From Candidatus Egaibacter danicus (lineage in GTDB: Bacteria; Pseudomonadota; Gammaproteobacteria; Burkholderiales; Burkholderiaceae_C): a stretch of DNA of 64,000 bases. The notes under the pieces were generated by a model that was not told where the DNA came from, searched no databases, and saw nothing but the letters and a program-made list of their open reading frames with translations. Each line of letters begins with the position of its first letter. Position 1 is the stretch's first letter. Both the position numbers and the translations under genes were made by a program. Below are positions 7,774 to 64,000 of the stretch, piece after piece. The stretch spans positions 261,082 through 325,081 of the forward strand of contig JADJII010000002.1 in NCBI GenBank assembly GCA_016707075.1, written 5' to 3'.

Positions 7774-8247
7774 ATGGGAGTTGCAGATATGGCCAATGGA
7801 AACGGTGGTGGGCACGTGGAGTCGGTCATCGACGGCGGGCGATTGCTCGCGGTTATCGTCCGCGCTTCATTCCAATGTGACGGCATTGAGTTCTTTACCC
7901 CCAATGATTTCTCCCAGCAGCTGGGCTATATGAATCGACCCGAGGGATATGTCATCGCGCCTCACGTGCACAATCCGGTGATCCGTGAAGTCAGTTTTAC
8001 AAAAGAAGTGCTGTTCATTCGCAGTGGTCGGGTCCGCGTTGATTTCTACGACGACGCACAAACCTATCTTGAAAGCCGTGTGCTTCATGGCGGCGATGTC
8101 ATTCTGTTGGCGTTCGGTGGCCATGGCTTCGAAATGCTTGAGCGCAGCGAAATCATCGAGGTCAAGCAAGGTCCGTATGCAGGTGAGGCGGATAAGACGC
8201 GGTTTTCCCCAGTGGAACAGAGTTATTTGAAAGTGTTTGGTAAATGA
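7774..8247 (+). CDS. Cupin-fold sugar-nucleotide modifying protein (WxcM/FdtA/WbuC-like)
   Basis: The beta-rich sequence with ..YVIAPHVHNP..EVLFIRSGRVRVDFYD..GGDVILL..GGHGFEML.. is typical of small cupins encoded next to DegT aminotransferases. Its stop overlaps the next start (ATGA at 8244-8247). Start chosen at the Met at 7774. Confidence 0.55.
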   Translation: MGVADMANGNGGGHVESVIDGGRLLAVIVRASFQCDGIEFFTPNDFSQQLGYMNRPEGYVIAPHVHNPVIREVSFTKEVLFIRSGRVRVDFYDDAQTYLESRVLHGGDVILLAFGGHGFEMLERSEIIEVKQGPYAGEADKTRFSPVEQSYLKVFGK

Positions 8248-9371
8248 GCAGTTCCTTGCAACTTGTTCCAGTTAATGAACCGTTGCTGAATGGCAATGAA
8301 GAAAAATATTTGTCCGAATGCATTCGGACTGGATGGATTTCGTCAGAGGGGCCGTTCGTCAAGCGATTCGAGGAGGAGATGGCGTCTCGGGTTGGCCGTC
8401 GGTATGGTATTGCTGTTTCTAATGGAACGGCTGCACTGGACGCGGCGGTTGATGCCTTGGGGATTGGGAGTGGTGACGAAGTCATCGTGCCAACTTTCAC
8501 GATCATTTCATGCATCGCCCAAATCGTGCGCGCAGGAGCCAAGCCAGTTCTAGTTGATAGTGACCCCAGCACCTGGAACATGGACGTCAGTCAGATCGAG
8601 TCCAAGATCACAGCAAGAACCAAGGCGATCATGATTGTTCACATCTATGGCTTGCCTGTGGATGTGGATCCAGTATTGGAACTGGCGCGGCGCTACGGGC
8701 TCAAGGTGATTGAAGATGCAGCTGAAATGCATGGGCAGACCTATAAAAAGCGGCCCTGTGGCAGTTTTGGCGACATCAGCATCTTCAGCTTCTACCCCAA
8801 CAAGCACGTCACGACTGGCGAGGGGGGCATGCTGGTTACTGATGATCCTGTACTCGCAGAAGTGTCGCAAGGTTTGCGTAATCTGTGTTTCCAGCCTGCC
8901 AAGCGTTTTGTGCATGAACGGCTGGGCTGGAATTTGAGGATGACCAACCTTCAGGCGGCGATCGGGGTGGCCCAGTTGGAGCGCCTGGATGAGTTTGTTA
9001 TTCGAAAACGGCGCATGGGGAAACGATACACCGAACTACTGTCGGGGCTGCCTGGTGTGCAATTGCCCTTGGAATGTACGGACGCGGCGGAGAATATTTA
9101 TTGGGTATACGGATTGGTGCTGGATGAATCCAAAGGTATCGACGCTGAGAGAGTGATGAAACTTCTGGCTGCAAAGGGAATAGGCTGCCGGCCATTCTTC
9201 TGTCCTATGCACCAGCAACCGGTCTTGCGTTCCATGGGCCTGTTCGAAGGTGAGTCATATCCTGTCGCCGACCACCTTTACAAGCAAGGGTTTTACATCC
9301 CCAGTGGAATGGCCCTGTCAGAAAAGCAGATGACTGTTGTGGCCGAGGCCGTATGGGAAGTGCTCGGATGA
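8244..9371 (+). CDS. DegT/DnrJ/EryC1/StrS-family PLP sugar aminotransferase (perosamine-synthase-like)
   Basis: 375 aa. N-terminus ..NEPLLNGNEEKYLSECIRTGWISSEGPFVKRFEEEMA.., plus ..FSFYPNKHVTTGEGGM.. containing the PLP-lysine. Confidence 0.9.
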   Translation: MSSSLQLVPVNEPLLNGNEEKYLSECIRTGWISSEGPFVKRFEEEMASRVGRRYGIAVSNGTAALDAAVDALGIGSGDEVIVPTFTIISCIAQIVRAGAKPVLVDSDPSTWNMDVSQIESKITARTKAIMIVHIYGLPVDVDPVLELARRYGLKVIEDAAEMHGQTYKKRPCGSFGDISIFSFYPNKHVTTGEGGMLVTDDPVLAEVSQGLRNLCFQPAKRFVHERLGWNLRMTNLQAAIGVAQLERLDEFVIRKRRMGKRYTELLSGLPGVQLPLECTDAAENIYWVYGLVLDESKGIDAERVMKLLAAKGIGCRPFFCPMHQQPVLRSMGLFEGESYPVADHLYKQGFYIPSGMALSEKQMTVVAEAVWEVLG

Positions 9372-10137
9372 CCGCTGTCTTTGACTCCTATGCTGCCTAT
9401 TACGACCTGCTGTACAGGGACAAGAATTACAGCGCAGAGGCGAATTTTGTCGATGAATTGCTGGCAAAACATGGGGTGCCAGATCGAGGCACTCTGCTCG
9501 AACTGGGCTGCGGTACAGGAAAGCACGCGGCTGAGTTGGCCAGAAGGGATATGGCATACATGGGCTGGATGTGAGCGTATCTATGGTGCAGGCAGCGAAT
9601 GACCAGAAACCGTCGGAGTTCGCGCAGCTACTGCAGTTCGAATTGGGAGATGTGCGTACAGCTCGAATAGGCCGGCAATTCGATGCGGTTATCTCATTGT
9701 TCCACGTAGCGAGTTATCAAGTCACCAATGCCGACCTGACAGCCATGTTCCAGACGGCAGCAATGCATTTGAAGGCTGGCGGTGTGTTTTTATTCGACTG
9801 CTGGTATGGCCCCGGAGTGCTTACCGATCTGCCTGTCACAAGAGTGAAGCGCATGAGTGGTGCTACAGCGAATGTGCTCAGAATTGCAGAGCCTGTCATG
9901 CACCCCAATGAAAACATTGTGGATGTGAATTACACGGTGCAGGTCCAGCAGCGTGGCGAGGATCACGTCAGTGAGATTTACGAAACGCATCGCATGCGCT
10001 ATCTATTCACCCCAGAGCTGGAGTGGATTCTGGGACGCGCAGGATTGCAGATGGTTGAGAGTGTGGATTGGCTGACAGGTACACCAATTGGATTGAAAAG
10101 CTGGACTGCAACTTTTGTGGCAGTCAAACTGGCGTGA
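9368..10137 (+). pseudogene. Class I SAM-dependent methyltransferase, frameshifted near 9544-9548
   Basis: ATG 9368 overlaps the DegT stop. Motif I LELGCGTGKHAAELA runs in frame 2 to a stop at 9572-9574. The rest (GYGIHGLDVSVSMVQAA..ISLFHV..GGVFLFD) is in frame 1 (ORF 9571..10137). A single missing A or G in agaaggga restores one 255-aa protein. Confidence 0.7.
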
Positions 10138-23442: not shown

Positions 23443-24921
23443 ATGCACACGTCTGCGGTCATTGGTACCGGACTGCGGCAGCGTTTGCTGCTGCTGCTGC
23501 TGATGCCGTTGATCCTTCTTGCGGGCGTCAGCACCTGGTTCGACTACAGGCAAGCCGGTGATACTGCGTTGCAGCAGGATCGCCAGCTCCTGGGCCTGGT
23601 TCCCCTGCTGGCTGACTCGGTGATTGCCCGCGGTCAGACAGCCATTGACGCGCCGGTGCTACTCATGGCGCCCCCGGTGGAAGAGTTCCTCAAGCAGCGC
23701 TCCGGCGTTGCCGCATTTGGTATCGCCAGCCCGGATGGACAGATGTTGATTGGTGAGCCCTGGCTGGGCGGGGCTTTGCCGTCAACCCGGGAGCCCGAAT
23801 TTTCGAGTGAAGTGGAAGATGGCGTGACCTACCGCATTGTCACGCAGCGTGTGCATACGGTGGCAGGCGACCTGGTGATGTACCTGGCCGACGGCTCCGA
23901 CTCGCGGCAACAGTGGCTGCGTCTGGTGCTCCTCAAAGTGGTGTTACCCAATCTGGTGCTGGCCGTTGTCGCCTTGTTCGCCATCAATTGGGCTGTGCGC
24001 CGCGCACTGCGCCCGCTGATCGAACTGAAAGAGGCTGTGGAACGCCGCTCGCCCCGCGATTTGAGTGCGCTGGATACGATGGCCTCGCCCGAGGAAGTGC
24101 GCCCGCTGGTGTCGTCGATCAACCGGTTGCTGGACCTTGTGAACGCCCAGACCGAAAGCCAGCGACGCTTCGTGGCTGACGCTGCGCACCAGTTGCGTAC
24201 ACCGCTGGCCGGCTTGCAGGCGCAGGTCGAAGCGTGGGCCCAGGCGGCCAACACAGCATCACAAGACGGCAAAAATACTCCAAATATGGAGTCAAATAGG
24301 CCTCTAGCCCTCGTGGAATATGCGCAACCAGCTATCATTTTAGGAGTGAATGAGGTTAGCCAGTTGCGGGACGCCGTTCGCCGCACCTCGCAGCTGGCTA
24401 ACCAGCTACTGGCCTTGTCACGCGCTGACGCGCTGGCGCTGGATACGCAACCCATGCAACCCCTTGACTTGAAGGACCTGTGCGAAAGCTTGCTGGAGGT
24501 TCATCTCAACACGGCTACCGCCAAGCACATCGACCTGGGTCTCGACGCCAGATCCATTCATGTCACAGGCCACGAATGGCTGTTGCGCGAAATGGTAGGG
24601 AACCTGCTGGACAATGCGGTGAAGTACACGTCCGAAGGTGGCACGGTGACGTTGCGTTGTGGCTACAGGACGCCATCCGGGATGGCAGAACGTCCCACCC
24701 GGGCGTTCATCGAAGTGGAGGATGACGGCCCGGGTGTGCCAGTGGACGAGCGTGACAAGGTGCTGGAGCGTTTTTACCGTGTGCCTGGCGTGGCGGGCCA
24801 GGGCAACGGGCTGGGGTTGGCGATAGCGCAGGAGATCGCTCACGTGCATGGCAGCGCTTTGGAGGTGGGCGCAGGACCCCATGGACGCGGATTGCGCGTC
24901 ACCATGGTGTTTCCGCCCTAG
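23443..24921 (+). CDS. QseC-type sensor histidine kinase carrying an in-frame AT-rich insertion in the DHp region
   Basis: Two TM segments, H-box FVADAAHQLRTPL, N-box LLDNAVKY, G-boxes DDGPGV and GNGLGLAI. Confidence 0.9.
   Translation: MHTSAVIGTGLRQRLLLLLLMPLILLAGVSTWFDYRQAGDTALQQDRQLLGLVPLLADSVIARGQTAIDAPVLLMAPPVEEFLKQRSGVAAFGIASPDGQMLIGEPWLGGALPSTREPEFSSEVEDGVTYRIVTQRVHTVAGDLVMYLADGSDSRQQWLRLVLLKVVLPNLVLAVVALFAINWAVRRALRPLIELKEAVERRSPRDLSALDTMASPEEVRPLVSSINRLLDLVNAQTESQRRFVADAAHQLRTPLAGLQAQVEAWAQAANTASQDGKNTPNMESNRPLALVEYAQPAIILGVNEVSQLRDAVRRTSQLANQLLALSRADALALDTQPMQPLDLKDLCESLLEVHLNTATAKHIDLGLDARSIHVTGHEWLLREMVGNLLDNAVKYTSEGGTVTLRCGYRTPSGMAERPTRAFIEVEDDGPGVPVDERDKVLERFYRVPGVAGQGNGLGLAIAQEIAHVHGSALEVGAGPHGRGLRVTMVFPP
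24268..24356 (+). repeat. Dispersed AT-rich repeat, copy A, in-frame inside the sensor kinase
   Basis: ccaaatatgg..ctctagccctcgtggaatatgcgcaaccagctatcatttt is colinear with the copies at 35.5 kb, 40.2 kb (reverse) and 62.4 kb. Translated as DGKNTPNMESNRPLALVEYAQPAIILGVNEV. Confidence 0.7.
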
Positions 24922-35511: not shown

Positions 35512-35585
35512 TGCCTTTTTCTGCCTTTAGCCCTTGCTGGATATGCGCAAGTAGCTATTAAAACAGTAGCTACTTACTACGCAAT
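35511..35585 (+). repeat. Dispersed AT-rich repeat, copy B (intergenic)
   Basis: cctttagcccttgctggatatgcgcaagtagctattaaaacagtagctac, with an internal GTAGCTA/TAGCTAC stem. Starts at the stop codon of the hydratase gene. Confidence 0.7.
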
Positions 35586-40209: not shown

Positions 40210-40275
40210 GTTGCTATTGAAATAATAGCTGGTTGCGCATATTCCACAGACGCTAGCCCCATATTTGGCATAAAA
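40209..40275 (-). repeat. Dispersed AT-rich repeat, copy C (intergenic, reverse orientation)
   Basis: The reverse complement reads ccaaatatggggctagcgtctgtggaatatgcgcaaccagctattatttcaatagc. It has a 23-nt exact match to copy A (gtggaatatgcgcaaccagctat). Confidence 0.75.
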
Positions 40276-40298
40276 AAGCCGCCTTTCGGCGGCTTTTT
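40272..40298. terminator. Bidirectional rho-independent terminator
   Basis: aaaaaaGCCGCCtttcGGCGGCttttt lies between convergent genes. Confidence 0.7.
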
Positions 40299-40316
40299 CA
40301 AGGTGCGCTGGAGAAA

Positions 40317-51474: not shown

Positions 51475-52211
51475 AAGGTATCAACTGGCTGGCCCCCTGG
51501 CTGGCTCCCTACCAGGAGTTGGGCCAGCGCATTGCCCATTTGACAGACGCAGGCCAGACGTGCGCGCAATCGCTGAACGCACAGAACGCTTGTCCCGTGG
51601 CATTTGTTCCGCAATCGGATTTGCCGGCAGGCGTGGCCTACGAAGAGTTCATCTTCAATACGGGCAAGGTTCCGACACGCGATGGTCTGCACGACTTCTT
51701 CAATGGTTTGTGCTGGATGCATTTTCCGCAAACCAAGCAGCGCCTGAACCAGTTGCAGGCAGCTCAAATTGCCCTGACCGGCATCCAGCCCGTGCGTGGA
51801 CCTGCGCGCGACGCACTCACGGTATTTGACGAAAACGCCGCTTTCTTGCAGGCACCTGATGCATTGTGGGAGGCGTTGGTGGCCAAAGACTGGCACGCCC
51901 TGTTTGTCACACTGCGTCCGCTTTGGGGCCAGGCTCACCTGGTGTTATTTGGACACGCGCTGCTGGAGAAGCTGGTTTCCCCCCGAAAAGCGATCACAGC
52001 CCACGTGTATCGTGCGCAGTCAGCTACCAATTCAATAGCAAATCTGGATGATTGGGTAGCGGCTGACTTGAGCGCCGAAAGGCTCTCCGGCAAACCTTTT
52101 GCGCATTTGCCGGTATTGGGGGTGCCACTCTGGTGTTCAGAGAACGAAGATCCGGCGTTCTACGAAGACACCACGGTATTTCGCGCCAATAACCGTAAAT
52201 CTCATGTGTAA
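51459..52211 (+). CDS. DUF3025-family protein
   Basis: 250-aa conserved-looking ORF immediately after pyrC (GTG start overlapping it). Motif ..[18 protein letters not shown]... Confidence 0.55.
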
Positions 52212-61753: not shown

Positions 61754-61954
61754 ATGGAAACACCAAGACTCCGGGTCGGGAAACCGATCTCACCCGAGCA
61801 GTTCGATGAATTGACCGACGAGCAACTGGCCCGTCTGGTGCCCCGCGCCTACCGCGAGTTTTTCCCTGGCAAGGACTTCTGTGCCGACGGCTATTTCTAC
61901 CTGCACGACGGCAATGCGTGGAGCTTCTACAAGGGCGGGTTTGTGGACGACTGA
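61754..61954 (+). CDS. Hypothetical 66-aa protein
   Basis: METPRLRVGKPISPEQFDELTDEQLARLVPRAYREFFPGKDFCADGYFYLHDGNAWSFYKGGFVDD is non-repetitive and looks protein-like. It is the only part of shadow ORF 60959..61954 not antisense to the MFS gene. Confidence 0.4.
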   Translation: METPRLRVGKPISPEQFDELTDEQLARLVPRAYREFFPGKDFCADGYFYLHDGNAWSFYKGGFVDD

Positions 61955-63591
61955 ATCCGCTGCACATGCGCCAGCAGCGAGCGTTTGGCGACCGGCCACA
62001 TGCGCGGTGGTACGTCGTCATAGGCTTTTGAAACCCAGTCGTCCATGGTGCCGTCCGGCAGGGCCTGCATCACCCGCAGAATCTTGGCTTCGCGCTTCAG
62101 GCGGTGGGCTTTGAGGTGGGCGATAGCGTCGCTAGCTCGGGCCAGCGCGTAGCCGTGGGCGGGCAGGATGAAATCGATGTGGTGTGCTTCGCAGGCCGCG
62201 GTCAGGATATCCAGCGACGTCAGGTAATCGGTCATGTCGCCATCGGGTGGGTCGATCACGGTGGTGCTGCCGTTCAGGATGTGGTCGCCGCTGAACAGCA
62301 GGCCATCTTCCAGCAACACCAGGCACAGGTGGTTGGCGGCATGGCCCGGGGTGTAAATAACCTTTAAAGTATGAGCCAAATCGGCATCTAGCCCTCGTCC
62401 ATTATGCGTTAGTAGCTCCTGATTTTGTAGCGTTCTGTCGGGCGTGAACTCACTGGCCGCACGGGATGTGGGAGCGCTGGGCAGGCCCAAGATGGGCGGC
62501 TGGGGGTGGCCGTTTTTCACGCACAGCGCCTGCAGCGGCCGCGCGCCGGGCGAGTGGTCCGGATGCGAATGGGTGCAGACAATCTGGTGGATGTCGCCAC
62601 CCGCTGCGCGCCACAGCTTTTCAATGTGCTCGGGGTCGGCTGGGCCGGGGTCGATCACGGTGTAGCCAGTGTTGGGGTCACCCACCAGGTAGCTGTTGGT
62701 GCCGGGGCCGGTCATCGCGCCGGGGTTGGGCGCGGTCAGCCGCATCACGTTGCGCAGCAGTTGCACGGGCTGTTCGGTCTGCCAGTCCAGGTGGTGCACG
62801 ATCTGCCCGTCGGGCGACACCAGCTCCAGCTCGCCATACGGATGCTCGTGCTCCATGTAGCGCGCCTCCCTGCCCGCCAGAAACCCGGCGCGCGGGCAGC
62901 TGGTCCACAGTGGCTGCTCGGTGGCCGCACAGGCCTGCAGCACGGCGTCCACGGTGGCAAAGGATTGCAGGCGCTCCAGCGTGCGGATGGTGGGAAAAAT
63001 GATGAAGAAGTTGCCTGCCTCGTGCCGGGCCAGCGCATCTGCCGGGCGCACCCACACGGGCTCGAACTGCTCGGACTCGTCGGCCACCGGCGTCTGCCCT
63101 TCGGGCATGCGCGCCACCAGAAACGGCACGTCAAAACGGCGCGACAGGTCGCGGTCGGTGATCCAGTGCGCCAGCACAAACACCTCGTCAGCGCACAGCG
63201 TCAGGCCACGCGCCTTGCATTGGGCGGCGAACGGCGCCTTGCGGTCCAGCGCAGCAATGTCGGCGGTGGTGGGCGATGTGCCGTCCGCGTGGCGGGCCAG
63301 CAGCACGCCCAGCTCTTCAAAACTCTCGCGGATGGCCGCGATGGCTTGTGTGAGGTGCAGGTCGCTTTGGGTGGCGCGTCTTGTCGATTGCGCATGACTG
63401 GTTGCGTCGGCTGCGTCCACACCGCCACCGGGGAAGACGTAGGCACCGGGCGCGAAGCTGGCTGTCGTCGAGCGACGGGTCATCAGGACCTCGATGCCTT
63501 GCGGACTGTCGCGCAGCAGGAGGACCGTTGCGGCTGGGCGGGTGGCAACCGGTTCGCGCTGGGTGTGGAGGAGTTGGGATATTCTGACCAT
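61927..63591 (-). CDS. Nudix hydrolase - metallo-beta-lactamase-fold fusion protein
   Basis: N-terminal Nudix box ..FPGGGVD(x18)..AIAAIRESFEELGVLL... C-terminal MBL motifs THSHPDHSPGA, TPGHAANH, FSGDH, LPAHG. Start at ATG 63591. Confidence 0.75.
   Translation of the reverse strand: MVRISQLLHTQREPVATRPAATVLLLRDSPQGIEVLMTRRSTTASFAPGAYVFPGGGVDAADATSHAQSTRRATQSDLHLTQAIAAIRESFEELGVLLARHADGTSPTTADIAALDRKAPFAAQCKARGLTLCADEVFVLAHWITDRDLSRRFDVPFLVARMPEGQTPVADESEQFEPVWVRPADALARHEAGNFFIIFPTIRTLERLQSFATVDAVLQACAATEQPLWTSCPRAGFLAGREARYMEHEHPYGELELVSPDGQIVHHLDWQTEQPVQLLRNVMRLTAPNPGAMTGPGTNSYLVGDPNTGYTVIDPGPADPEHIEKLWRAAGGDIHQIVCTHSHPDHSPGARPLQALCVKNGHPQPPILGLPSAPTSRAASEFTPDRTLQNQELLTHNGRGLDADLAHTLKVIYTPGHAANHLCLVLLEDGLLFSGDHILNGSTTVIDPPDGDMTDYLTSLDILTAACEAHHIDFILPAHGYALARASDAIAHLKAHRLKREAKILRVMQALPDGTMDDWVSKAYDDVPPRMWPVAKRSLLAHVQRIQSSTNPPL
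62353..62436 (+). repeat. Dispersed AT-rich repeat, copy D, embedded in-frame (antisense) in the MBL domain
   Basis: gagccaaatcggcatctagccctcgtccattatgcgttagtagctcctgattttgtagcg aligns colinearly with copies A and B (12-mer tctagccctcgt identical to A). Translated on the minus strand as TLQNQELLTHNGRGLDADLAHTLKVIY. Confidence 0.6.
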
Positions 63592-63626
63592 TTGGTGATT
63601 TTGCACTCCGTGCAGGGGTTTGTTTT

Positions 63627-63980
63627 CCCCACTCACTCCCCCAGCTCCTCTCCCGCCCCGCCGGGCGGAAGAGGGGAGCCTTATTTGGTTGTTGGTGTCT
63701 TGTTACGGAAATATTGGGGAAGATCCCCACTGTTTTTTTGAGTGGCAAGGCTTCAGGTGTTGAGTTCCGAGCGCCGGAGGCGCAACGGTTTGCGGCTGTT
63801 TCAACTCCCCTTCAACCCGGGCCGCCTCCGGCGCTCGGAACTAGTACCCGGAAACCTCAACACACCAAGAGCAGTGGTGACCTCTCCCGATATTTCCCCA
63901 TCCGGCGCGCAGAAGCAAAATCAAAGGCTCCCTCTTCCGCCCGGCGGGGCGGGAGAGGGCGGGGGGAGTGAGTGGGGGCT
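63627..63980. repeat. Composite palindrome of about 350 bp (possible MITE-like or structured element)
   Basis: Outer arms ccccactcactccccc..ctctcccgccccgccgggcggaagagg..gagcc (63627-63680) match their reverse complement at 63925-63980. The middle block ggaaatat.ggg..cc.cactg is mirrored. The inner perfect 19-bp stem is 63764-63782 / 63823-63841, around a 40-nt loop. Confidence 0.8.
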
Positions 63981-64000
63981 ACAAAAGCAAGTAAACAAGC

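What the first reader, a model, noticed from the sequence alone, without database searches (positions are those of the whole stretch)
62353..62436. Repeat-derived AT-rich patch translated (antisense to the element) inside the metallo-beta-lactamase domain
An 84-nt low-GC patch in the minus-strand Nudix-MBL gene aligns colinearly with the repeat family. By hand alignment it is about 64% identical to copy A, including the 12-mer tctagccctcgt, and it shares the gtagct..gtagc tail with copy B.

- It encodes TLQNQELLTHNGRGLDADLAHTLKVIY, immediately before the conserved TPGHAANH metal-binding motif.
- Unlike the kinase case, the element is read on its opposite strand, so both strands of the element can stay open.
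- The protein is not obviously longer here than typical MBL-fold enzymes. This may therefore be a replacement or gene-conversion patch rather than a simple insertion.
Basis: partly seen in the sequence, partly recalled or inferred. Interest (0 to 1): 0.6.

Follow-up and report, generated by a model that had tools for sequence, protein, structure and literature searches.

The report
Dispersed repeat translated inside MBL enzyme
A copy of a short AT-rich repeat that occurs about 540 times in this Rhodoferax-like genome is read in frame, on its opposite strand, as the beta-hairpin just before a metal-binding motif of a conserved Nudix-MBL enzyme. Related genera carry the same embedded copy, and it stays repeat-like only where the genome still holds many copies, which suggests continuing sequence exchange between the gene and the repeat family.

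Summary
- Window 62370-62435 is a near full-length member of a repeat family of about 537 copies. nhmmer gives E 1.8e-11 genome-wide and cmsearch gives 53.9 bits. It is 78% identical to the family consensus and 90% identical to the best single copy.
- It is read antisense and in frame as residues 388-406 of a 554-aa Nudix / LACTB2-like MBL protein. In the model these residues form the beta-hairpin leading into T414-P-G-H417.

**It is not a private or simple insertion.**
- Orthologues in at least six other genera have homologous residues and repeat-like DNA at the same site.
- No orthologue has the ordinary hairpin plus the element. The element-like sequence stands in place of the ordinary hairpin (16 residues in relatives that lack the family).

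**Survey of 80 named Comamonadaceae orthologues.**
- The hairpin varies in length (12 to 27 residues).
- It is element-like only in genomes that hold the family in high copy number.
- It is decayed where few copies remain and ordinary where there are none.
- Relatives about 85% identical outside the hairpin can differ between a complete 24-27-residue element and a decayed 20-residue form.

**Best reading:** an old, domesticated in-frame repeat, behaving like Rickettsia palindromic elements, that is refreshed by gene conversion or re-insertion from genomic copies.

**Novelty:** a new variant of a known kind. Interest is moderate.

The parts
62370..62435 (+). Embedded copy of the dispersed repeat. 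The element lies on the + strand and the gene reads its complement. The 54-nt conserved core is 62379-62432, and the degenerate hairpin AGCTCCTGATTTTGTAGC is at its right end.
   Evidence: nhmmer E 1.8e-11, 45.9 bits. cmsearch 53.9 bits, model positions 16-81 of 84. 42 of 54 positions identical to the family consensus.
62353..62378 (+). Low-GC stretch to the left of the core. It encodes A406-HTLKVIY413 on the minus strand and overlaps the weakly conserved left extension of the element.
   Evidence: Left-extension matrix score is +12.8 in G000 and +16.6 in G003, against +6.3 in G009, +2.2 in G024 and negative values in the other eight orthologues. In G003 the cmsearch match reaches model position 6.
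61927..63591 (-). Nudix / MBL / winged-helix gene, 554 aa from the ATG at 63591. The coordinates include the stop codon.
   Evidence: Pfam NUDIX, Lactamase_B and BLACT_WH. Orthologues of 548-554 aligned residues. Closest solved structures are human LACTB2 (4AD9) and a Nudix hydrolase (3QSJ).
62353..62430 (-). Codons 388-413. In the model they form a beta-hairpin: strand 393-399, turn 400-403, strand 404-413.
   Evidence: AlphaFold2 model m6133be1faffa, mean pLDDT 82.6. The 10-residue blocks covering 381-420 have pLDDT 82-90.
62341..62352 (-). T414-P-G-H417 metal-binding motif, directly downstream of the patch.
   Evidence: Invariant in all 16 aligned orthologues.
62554..62571 (-). H341-x-H-x-D-H346 metal-binding motif of the MBL domain.
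   Evidence: Invariant columns in alignment A1.
24295..24346 (+). Another family copy in the window, in frame in the sensor kinase (the 'kinase case').
   Evidence: nhmmer E 2.6e-13. Earlier finding e1-3010548.
35523..35570 (+). Intergenic family copy.
   Evidence: nhmmer E 2.2e-11.
40212..40256 (-). Intergenic family copy, directly after a terminator-like hairpin.
   Evidence: nhmmer E 1.9e-07. Sequence read.
51997..52040 (+). Weaker, partial family copy.
   Evidence: nhmmer E 1.1e-05.

Best explanation
The patch is a domesticated copy of a dispersed AT-rich repeat of about 70-80 nt. I could not find the family described. It has about 540 copies in this genome and is abundant in several Comamonadaceae genera. 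The copy sits antisense and in frame in the Nudix-MBL gene.

**Shown.**
- It is a bona fide family member.
- It encodes the beta-hairpin that leads into the TPGH motif.
- The same site is element-like in orthologues of several other genera, so the embedding is old.
- It stands in place of the ordinary hairpin rather than being added to it.

**Inferred.**
- After an early in-frame capture at this tolerant hairpin, the embedded copy has been refreshed repeatedly from genomic copies. The mechanism would be ectopic gene conversion or re-insertion, seeded by the shared sequence.
- This would explain why the copy keeps rare AT-ending codons and varies in length (16 to 27 residues).
- It would also explain why the copy stays element-like only in genomes where the family is abundant.
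- The version in this genus is among the freshest. It shares its derived residues (H396, R399, A403-D-L-A406) with the family consensus and with another in-frame copy on contig C12.
- The enzyme tolerates this because only the distal part of a surface hairpin is replaced.
For: **Family membership.** nhmmer, cmsearch, blastn and the position weight matrix all agree.

**Age.**
- Orthologue DNA at the same site scores 28.6 bits (G009), 26.9 (G011, G021), 19.5 (G010) and 14.8 (G006) against the G000 family profile.
- The matrix core scores run from +21 to +44, against a null of -109 +/- 20.
- The consensus of 22 orthologues with a 20-residue hairpin is 39/54 identical to the element consensus.
- GC3 of the core stays at 0.50-0.67, against 0.87-0.94 in the rest of the gene, in six genera.

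**Replacement, not addition.** Genomes without the family have an ordinary hairpin of 16 residues (ELADGERLVLQGxGxx, scores -55 to -82). Element-like forms always begin right after PDRx.

**Fresh input from elements.**
- L060, L108, L110 and L057 carry colinear matches to model positions 4/7 through 78-82, including the left extension. Their hairpins are 22-27 residues long.
- L060 and L057 are 85% identical outside the hairpin to relatives with decayed 20-residue forms (L066, L058).
- Close relatives of this genome, 90-93% identical over the queried C-terminal region, include a variant with 4 extra residues.

**Dependence on the family.**
- All 19 loci with another copy in their 3-kb flanks have an element-like hairpin. 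None of the 51 loci that are not element-like has a flanking copy (Fisher p 1.7e-11). Protein identity to G000 is similar in the two groups, 74.3% against 72.6%.
- Whole-genome counts:
  - Seven of the eight genomes with 105 or more copies have hairpin scores of +15.6 to +60; the exception is L064 (128 copies, -40).
  - Eight of the nine genomes with decayed 20-residue hairpins (-13 to -48) hold only 0-29 copies; the ninth is L064.
  - The seven genomes with 0-1 copies have hairpins with no element likeness: five ordinary 16-17-residue forms and two 20-residue forms.

**In-frame capture is general for this family.** About 36 copies lie in ORFs. One is the C12 copy, which encodes TLQNQELLTHITRGLQADLAL and is 48/54 identical to the patch. 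It is also present in the orthologues from G003 and G006.

**Structure.** The hairpin is modelled confidently.
Against: - **No intermediate form.** I found no orthologue with the ordinary hairpin plus the element, so the original event is inferred, not seen.
- **Periodicity shared with the ordinary strand.** The element-coded strand L-x-N-x-E-L-L-T-L has the same periodicity as the ordinary L-A-D-G-E-R-L-V-L. Under capture of foreign DNA that is a coincidence or a survivor effect.
- **Weak evidence for a conversion specific to this genus.** Only 6 of 9 informative changes go towards the consensus (p 0.04).
- **No clear genome-specific co-variation.** Comparing each patch with each genome's family consensus gave no clear diagonal.
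- **Shared yardstick.** Copy counts and patch scores are both measured against the G000 model, so they are not fully independent.
- **Data limits.** Many genomes are MAGs. The gene tree is poorly resolved.
- **Exceptions.**
  - L064 has 128 copies but a decayed hairpin.
  - Some 20-residue hairpins with no element-like DNA (L067, Hydrogenophaga) resemble the element-like ones at the protein level.
Confidence: 0.6

Rival explanations
1. There was one ancient in-frame insertion or replacement and no later exchange. Differences in how element-like the hairpin is today would reflect lineage-specific substitution rates, small indels and selection on the protein alone.
For: - The element-likeness is shared across genera.
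- The genus-specific shift towards the consensus is statistically weak.
- There is no clear genome-specific co-variation.
- The hairpin tip tolerates indels without any element being involved, as in L067 against L084.
Against: - Forms of 24-27 residues carry the element's left extension colinearly, and they sit next to relatives about 85% identical that have decayed 20-residue forms.
- Preservation tracks family copy number in several separate clades, at similar protein divergence.
- Rare AT-ending codons (CTA CAA AAT) persist in at least six genera although GC3 is 0.85-0.94 elsewhere in the gene.
Confidence: 0.17
2. The direction is the reverse. The repeat family was born from the hairpin-coding segment of this gene in an ancestor, then amplified. 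The gene copy would be the source, not a captured element.
For: - Element-like forms occupy exactly the position and periodicity of the ordinary hairpin strand, and no form with hairpin plus element exists.
- A 60%-identical outgroup (L021) that is clearly homologous at the protein level still scores -12.7, far above the null.
- The distributions of the family and of the element-like gene form coincide.
Against: - The family is AT-rich with a covarying 5-bp hairpin, a left extension and a sharp end. None of these are coding features. The element consensus has four stop codons in the frame the gene uses.
- The ancestral gene segment should have been GC-rich like the rest of the gene.
- Other genes carry old in-frame copies in other frames, so flow from element to gene is the family's general behaviour. 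Examples are the kinase and the C12 ORF.
- The left extension is present only in some gene forms.
Confidence: 0.07
3. The embedded sequence is kept element-like by selection on a DNA- or RNA-level function of the element that works only in genomes holding the cognate factor. Examples would be a protein-binding site or an RNA processing site.
For: - Synonymous AT-ending codons are conserved across genera.
- Preservation is coupled to the presence of the family.
Against: - No conserved RNA structure and no Rfam family.
- No promoter-like or terminator-like site in the patch.
- The length and sequence of the patch vary freely, even within the genus.
- No candidate factor was found. The only Y1-transposase-like gene is also present in genomes without the family.
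Confidence: 0.08
4. The resemblance is due to chance or to composition.
For: None beyond the short length of the patch.
Against: - E 1.8e-11 genome-wide.
- A matrix score 8.5 sd above the genome null.
- 90% identity over 60 nt to another copy.
- The match is colinear over 66 nt.
Confidence: 0.01

Closest known systems
Rickettsia palindromic elements (RPEs; Ogata et al. 2000, as reviewed in PMC10969869)
   Same: - A dispersed short repeat, a minority of whose copies lie in frame inside unrelated functional genes.
- These copies are translated as extra or replacement peptide at tolerant surface sites.
- They are conserved in orthologues of related species.
   Different: - No sequence relation to RPEs.
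- The host is a free-living, GC-rich betaproteobacterium.
- The element is shorter (about 70-80 nt against about 100-150) with only a 5-bp hairpin.
- Here the copy replaces a beta-hairpin of a catalytic domain rather than adding a loop.
- Its preservation tracks the family's copy number, which suggests continuing exchange. I did not find that reported for RPEs in what I read.
Intragenic REPs of the GTAG and CGTC super-families (Di Nocera et al. 2013, PMC3733652)
   Same: - Short repeats lying mostly downstream of genes, sometimes supplying stop codons.
- Some lie wholly inside ORFs and encode 20-30 residues.
- The hairpin arm here reads GTAGC or ATAGC.
   Different: - REPs are palindromes of 20-40 bp with long stems, often paired and tied to RAYT genes.
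- This element is about 54-80 nt and mostly non-palindromic.
- The single Y1-transposase-like gene does not track the family.
BRE, the Beta-proteobacterial repeat element (Hot et al. 2011, PMC3110155)
   Same: A repeat of about 90 bp reported in Polaromonas, Rhodoferax and Acidovorax, sometimes within coding sequence.
   Different: BRE is GC-rich (about 69%), often tandem, and present at 1-29 copies. The present family is about 45% GC, dispersed, and present at hundreds of copies. It is not the same family.
Human LACTB2 (PDB 4AD9) and the MBL-fold hydrolases
   Same: The MBL domain plus the C-terminal winged helix align over residues 277-548 at 30-32% identity, including the strand and TPGH motif that follow the patch.
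   Different: LACTB2 has the ordinary short hairpin (..[21 protein letters not shown]) and no Nudix domain.

Membership tests
In-frame intragenic repeats of the RPE kind (a functional class, not the Rickettsia sequence families) | The segment belongs to a multi-copy dispersed repeat family of the same genome. | tested here: met
   537 copies. The patch has E 1.8e-11 and ranks 167th. cmsearch gives 53.9 bits.
In-frame intragenic repeats of the RPE kind (a functional class, not the Rickettsia sequence families) | The copy lies inside an intact ORF in frame, and the gene is conserved and apparently functional. | tested here: met
   A 554-aa ORF with all MBL and Nudix motifs intact, and orthologues in 90+ genomes.
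In-frame intragenic repeats of the RPE kind (a functional class, not the Rickettsia sequence families) | Relative to homologues without the element, the copy is an added peptide (a simple insertion). | tested here: not met
   The element-like sequence replaces the ordinary hairpin. The net change is +4 residues (20 against 16), not +18 to +27. No form combining both was found in 92 orthologues.
In-frame intragenic repeats of the RPE kind (a functional class, not the Rickettsia sequence families) | The encoded peptide sits where the fold tolerates it. | tested here: met
   The AlphaFold2 model gives a beta-hairpin at 393-413 with pLDDT 82-90. This is a prediction only.
Rickettsia RPE sequence families | Sequence similarity to RPE-1 through RPE-10. 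| not tested
   No RPE sequences were compared. Rfam gave no match to the element.
REP / REPIN elements mobilised by RAYT | A short imperfect palindrome with a conserved GTAG end, commonly in inverted pairs. | tested here: inconclusive
   Only a 5-bp stem (GCTAY-N7-RTAGC) is present, with T:A to C:G covariation seen by eye. RNAalifold finds no consensus structure.
REP / REPIN elements mobilised by RAYT | A cognate RAYT gene flanked by the repeats, co-distributed with the family. | tested here: not met
   One Y1_Tnp gene (C8:8060-8760) has copies at 8011-8058 and 9349-9402. However, single-copy orthologues are also present in genomes with zero copies of the family (set).
MITE | Terminal inverted repeats and target-site duplications. 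| tested here: inconclusive
   No terminal pairing in the 84-column alignment. The left end is fuzzy and the right end is sharp. Target-site duplications were not examined.
BRE (Hot et al. 2011) | GC-rich unit (about 69% GC) of 75-91 bp, often tandem. | tested here: not met
   The element is about 45% GC and dispersed. No BRE sequence was available for direct alignment.
Metallo-beta-lactamase fold, LACTB2-like with BLACT_WH | The HxHxDH and TPGH motifs with later His/Asp ligands, and Pfam Lactamase_B and BLACT_WH above their cut-offs. | tested here: met
   PF00753 at 71.2 bits and PF17778 at 29.4 bits. The motif columns are invariant. 4AD9 matches at E 2.2e-27.

The most novel reading that the evidence does not exclude
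The flow of information was originally the other way. The whole repeat family, with hundreds of copies per genome, descends from the hairpin-coding segment of this Nudix-MBL gene. On this reading a fragment of an ordinary enzyme gene became a genome-wide mobile repeat and now converts its own parent.
Probability: 0.07. Interest if true: 0.85.

Novelty: new variant of a known kind. Interest (0 to 1): 0.55.

Why it matters
It has been known since the Rickettsia palindromic elements that selfish repeats can be translated inside genes, but documented cases are few, and the best-studied are in reduced intracellular genomes.

Three things stand out here:
- A free-living, GC-rich group shows the same behaviour at scale, with about 36 in-frame copies in one genome.
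- One copy forms a secondary-structure element of a catalytic domain, right next to a metal ligand.
- Its state across about 90 genomes tracks the abundance of the repeat family.

If the inferred exchange is real, a repeat family acts as a standing donor that keeps rewriting one hairpin of a conserved enzyme. That would be a natural case of cassette-like diversification. It would also be a measurable example of ectopic conversion between non-coding repeats and coding sequence.

There is a practical point for annotation and phylogenetics. This segment of the gene does not evolve like the rest of it, so it should be masked.

Tried and rejected
- **Rfam, gathering thresholds.** Only RNase P was found. 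Nothing matched the element.
- **RNAalifold on 70 copies.** No consensus structure.
- **Promoter and terminator scan of the patch.** Nothing.
- **BRE of Hot et al. 2011.** Considered as the family's identity and rejected on GC content and arrangement.
- **RAYT as mobiliser.** A Y1_Tnp gene is flanked by two copies, but its orthologues occur in genomes with no copies, so no link can be claimed.
- **Genome-specific concerted evolution.** Gene patch compared with each genome's own family consensus, for G000, G009 and G011:
  - Three diagnostic positions agree.
  - The full matrix has no clear diagonal, so this was not used as evidence.
- **Polarising changes specific to this genus.** 6 go towards the consensus, 3 away and 3 neither, p 0.04. 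This is weak.
- **Identical 18-nt loop shared with the C12 copy as proof of a donor.** Only two exact copies exist, but 20 lie within two mismatches, so chance is not excluded.
- **Errors and failures.**
  - My first matrix scoring of the orthologues used a register 2 nt off. It was corrected. The null distribution is unaffected.
  - A MAFFT run on the representatives timed out and was replaced by motif anchoring.
- **Gene trees.** Too poorly resolved to decide whether this genus branches first.
Full report
**1. The observation**

The stretch 62353-62436 is a real low-GC island.
- GC in 80-nt windows falls to 0.45 at 62360-62439, against 0.60-0.75 around it.
- On the minus strand it lies in a 554-aa ORF (61927-63591) with Pfam NUDIX, Lactamase_B and BLACT_WH domains.

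**2. Is it a member of the repeat family?**

Yes, on every measure.
- The repeat finder links 62373-62417 to 24289-24333 and 35512-35556.
- The shared 12-mer occurs only twice in the window, with 0.12 matches expected by chance.
- In the whole genome (4.34 Mb) blastn finds dozens of matches. The best is 90% identical over 60 nt, at C12:68609.
- An iterated nhmmer profile converges on 537 copies with the core consensus AATTGGCCTCTAGCCCTCGTCGAATATGCGTGAGCAGCTATTAAATTTATAGCA. The patch matches model positions 1-53 with E 1.8e-11 and ranks 167th.

The shape of the element follows from flank alignment of 372 copies.
- The right end is sharp (...ATAGCA).
- On the left there is a weakly conserved extension (aTTTTA.g.GtCA).
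- The whole element is therefore about 70-80 nt.

A sequence model built from 70 other copies matches window 62370-62435 at 53.9 bits, over model positions 16-81. Rfam has no family for the element, and RNAalifold finds no consensus structure. By eye there is a 5-bp hairpin, GCTAY-N7-RTAGC, with T:A to C:G covariation.

**3. It is not private to this genome**

I searched 40 relatives with the protein and aligned the orthologues.

*Protein level.* The protein is the same length in other genera, and the residues at the patch are homologous. For example, G009 has PLQNQELLTLSGQGLEGKITHTLQVIH.

*DNA level.* The orthologues' DNA at the site is itself repeat-like.

| Genome | nhmmer bits vs the G000 profile | Matrix score of the 54-nt core |
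|---|---|---|
| G000 | 45.9 | +65 |
| G003 | 45.9 | +62 |
| G009 | 28.6 | +44 |
| G011 | 26.9 | +39 |
| G021 | 26.9 | +38 |
| G010 | 19.5 | +32 |
| G006 | 14.8 | +25 |
| G024 | 9.8 | +21 |
| L021 (60%-identical metagenomic outgroup) | no hit at this site | -13 |
| G015 | 4.9 | -45 |
| G008 | no hit | -76 |

Random genome windows have mean -109 and sd 20 on the matrix.

*Codon usage.* GC3 of the 18 core codons is 0.33 here and 0.50-0.67 in G009, G011, G021, G010, G006 and G024. The rest of the gene has GC3 of 0.85-0.94. Rare codons such as CTA CAA AAT are shared across genera.

**4. The family's distribution**

The model finds the family in several groups.
- At 110 copies in G016 and 92 in G010.
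- At 11 copies in G013 and 1 in G020.
- Absent from the other members of the family and from every other family of the order.

Source names in the protein search place the group in Comamonadaceae: Rhodoferax, Polaromonas and Acidovorax.

**5. A wide survey of the hairpin**

The search for related loci returned 80 named Comamonadaceae orthologues with their DNA. I anchored each on HxHxDH and TPGH and read the hairpin between F-x-P-D-R and H-T-L.

| Hairpin type | Length (residues) | Matrix score | Examples |
|---|---|---|---|
| Ordinary, e.g. ELADGERLVLQGNGST | mostly 16 (a few 12 or 17) | -55 to -82 | Hydrogenophaga, Limnohabitans, Curvibacter, Ramlibacter, Caenimonas, some Polaromonas |
| Element-like | 16 (first half only), 20, 22, 24 or 27 | up to +60 | L060, a Rhodoferax ferrireducens MAG, reaches +60 |

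- In every element-like form the element starts directly after PDRx. No orthologue has the ordinary strand followed by an element.
- cmsearch shows that the 22-27-residue forms (L060, L108, L110, L057) match the model colinearly from position 4/7 to 78-82, so they include the left extension. The 20-residue forms match from about position 16.

**6. Evidence for later input from elements**

*Close relatives differ sharply in the hairpin.*
- L060 (24 residues, complete element) is 85.5% identical outside the hairpin to L066 (20 residues, decayed, -39).
- L057 (27 residues) is 85.1% identical to L058 (20 residues, -13).

*Variation within the genus.* Metagenomic proteins 90-93% identical to the queried C-terminal region of this one differ at the hairpin tip, and one has 4 extra residues.

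*Coupling to the family in flanking DNA.*
- All 19 loci with another copy in their 3-kb flanks have an element-like hairpin.
- None of the 51 loci that are not element-like has such a copy (Fisher p 1.7e-11).
- Mean protein identity to G000 is about the same in the two groups, 74.3% against 72.6%.

*Whole-genome copy counts (the cap is 150).*

| Locus | Copies in genome | Hairpin matrix score |
|---|---|---|
| L060 | >=150 | +60.1 |
| L061 | 105 | +41.3 |
| L110 | >=150 | +39.0 |
| L056 | >=150 | +38.5 |
| L057 | >=150 | +35.6 |
| L106 | >=150 | +24.7 |
| L094 | >=150 | +15.6 |
| L121 | 17 | -5.2 |
| L058 | 3 | -13.4 |
| L071 | 0 | -24.5 |
| L053 | 8 | -27.6 |
| L062 | 29 | -37.6 |
| L063 | 6 | -38.6 |
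| L066 | 25 | -39.2 |
| L064 | 128 | -40.5 |
| L081 | 12 | -41.2 |
| L054 | 3 | -48.1 |

- L064 is the exception: many copies but a decayed hairpin.
- The seven genomes with 0-1 copies have hairpins with no element likeness: five ordinary forms of 16-17 residues (L065, L118, L079, L084, L103) and two 20-residue forms (L067, L088).

*Independence of the contrasts.* On the gene tree the contrasts fall in at least the Rhodoferax and Polaromonas clades, and also next to this genus and next to G024. The association is therefore not a single phylogenetic event.

*The argument.* A copy embedded once and never refreshed should decay at the same pace whether or not the family is still abundant. It does not, so I infer family-dependent maintenance, most simply by gene conversion or re-insertion. 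GC pressure does not explain the pattern. G021 has GC3 of 0.94 and keeps the patch, whereas G015 has GC3 of 0.84 and has lost it.

**7. This genus in particular**

- Compared with the consensus of 22 orthologues that have a 20-residue hairpin (39/54 identical to the element consensus), G000 differs at 12 core positions. Six go towards the consensus, 3 away and 3 neither (p 0.04).
- The residues concerned (L396H, Q399R, G403A, E404D, I405L, T406A) all match another in-frame copy at C12:68591-68669. That copy encodes TLQNQELLTHITRGLQADLAL inside a 1242-aa ORF and is 48/54 identical to the patch.
- It shares the only other exact copy of the 18-nt loop AGCTCCTGATTTTGTAGC in the genome.
- The left-extension score is positive mainly in this genus: +12.8 and +16.6, against +6.3 in G009, +2.2 in G024 and negative values in the rest.

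I read this as suggestive of a fairly recent conversion. It is not proof. A comparison of each patch with each genome's family consensus showed no clear genome-specific pattern.

**8. In-frame copies are a general habit of the family**

- A crude screen required the frame to be open through the element, at least 60 codons upstream and 30 downstream, and GC3 above 0.75 on both sides. It finds 38 ORF placements of about 36 copies.
- These cluster in recurrent frames: antisense LQKxELLTHxGRGLxAxL, antisense AINLIAxHAxSTRAEGQN, and sense ALAPVEYAQxATxSIA.
- The C12 copy is also present in the orthologue in G003 and, decayed, in G006.
- An earlier follow-up in this scan reached the same view for the kinase copy.

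**9. Structure**

- The AlphaFold2 model (mean pLDDT 82.6) makes residues 393-399 and 404-413 the two strands of a hairpin that runs into T414-P-G-H417. The 10-residue blocks covering 381-420 have pLDDT 82-90.
- The closest solved structures are human LACTB2 (4AD9, E 2.2e-27 by sequence) for the MBL and winged-helix part, and a Nudix hydrolase (3QSJ) for the N-terminal part.
- LACTB2 has the ordinary short hairpin.
- That the distal hairpin is solvent-exposed and away from the metal site is my inference from the MBL fold. I did not measure it.

**10. What is known**

- In-frame repeats are classic for Rickettsia RPEs (review PMC10969869). They are also reported for GTAG and CGTC REPs in several species (PMC3733652).
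- The BRE repeat reported from Polaromonas and Rhodoferax is GC-rich and often tandem, so it is a different family (PMC3110155).
- I found no description of the present family, but the library I could search is limited.
- The one Y1-transposase-like gene of this genome has copies on both sides. Its orthologues, however, are present in genomes without the family, so the mobilising enzyme remains unknown.

**11. Verdict**

- The thing is an old, domesticated, antisense in-frame repeat copy that replaces a beta-hairpin of an MBL domain. It is probably (about 60%) kept in step with its family by recurrent exchange.
- The main rival is a single ancient event without later exchange (about 17%).
- The most novel reading that remains open, that the family was born from this gene, is unlikely (about 7%).

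Noticed in passing
G000 contig C12:68591-68669 (outside the window): A family copy lies in frame (antisense frame) in the low-complexity linker of a 1242-aa ORF and encodes TLQNQELLTHITRGLQADLAL. It is 48/54 identical to the MBL patch and has the same 18-nt loop. It is also present in the orthologue in G003 and, decayed, in G006.
   Followed up: partly
whole genome G000: About 36 of 537 copies lie in frame in ORFs that look coding. They fall in a few recurrent frames, with peptides LQKxELLTHxGRGL..., AINLIAxHAxSTRAEGQN and ALAPVEYAQxATxSIA. My screen was crude (open frame plus GC3) and it missed at least the C12 and kinase copies.
   Followed up: partly
G000 contig C8:7950-8805: The single Y1_Tnp (IS200/RAYT-like) gene and an adjacent family copy are bracketed by a perfect inverted repeat of about 19 nt (GGGGTCAGATTCCAATTAT / ATAATTGGAATCTGACCCC). 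A further family copy lies about 600 nt upstream, at 9349-9402. Orthologues of the gene are single-copy in nearly all Comamonadaceae searched.
   Followed up: partly
G024:C1:816107-819577; G061 (Ottowia beijingensis):C1:1232622-1237740: In these two genomes the RAYT-like gene lies within 1-3 kb of the Nudix-MBL gene. In G000 and G006 the two genes are far apart.
   Followed up: no
L064 and L072 (one MAG, JAZKCN01): This genome holds two copies of the Nudix-MBL gene, both with decayed 20-residue hairpins, although it has 128 copies of the repeat. It is the one exception to the link between copy number and preservation.
   Followed up: no
protein family of window 61927-63591: Many JGI records name this Nudix-MBL protein 'recombination protein RecT'. 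This looks like a propagated misannotation, because the Pfam domains are NUDIX, Lactamase_B and BLACT_WH.
   Followed up: no
window 40240-40300 (minus strand): An intergenic family copy begins directly after a terminator-like hairpin (aaaaagccgccgaaaggcggctttttt). The T-rich left extension of the family consensus may partly reflect this preferred position behind terminators.
   Followed up: no
window 63619-63985: There are nested long inverted repeats upstream of the Nudix-MBL gene: a 29-nt perfect pair at 63647/63930 and a 56-nt pair at 63737/63813. These were already noted by another first-stage finding.
   Followed up: no
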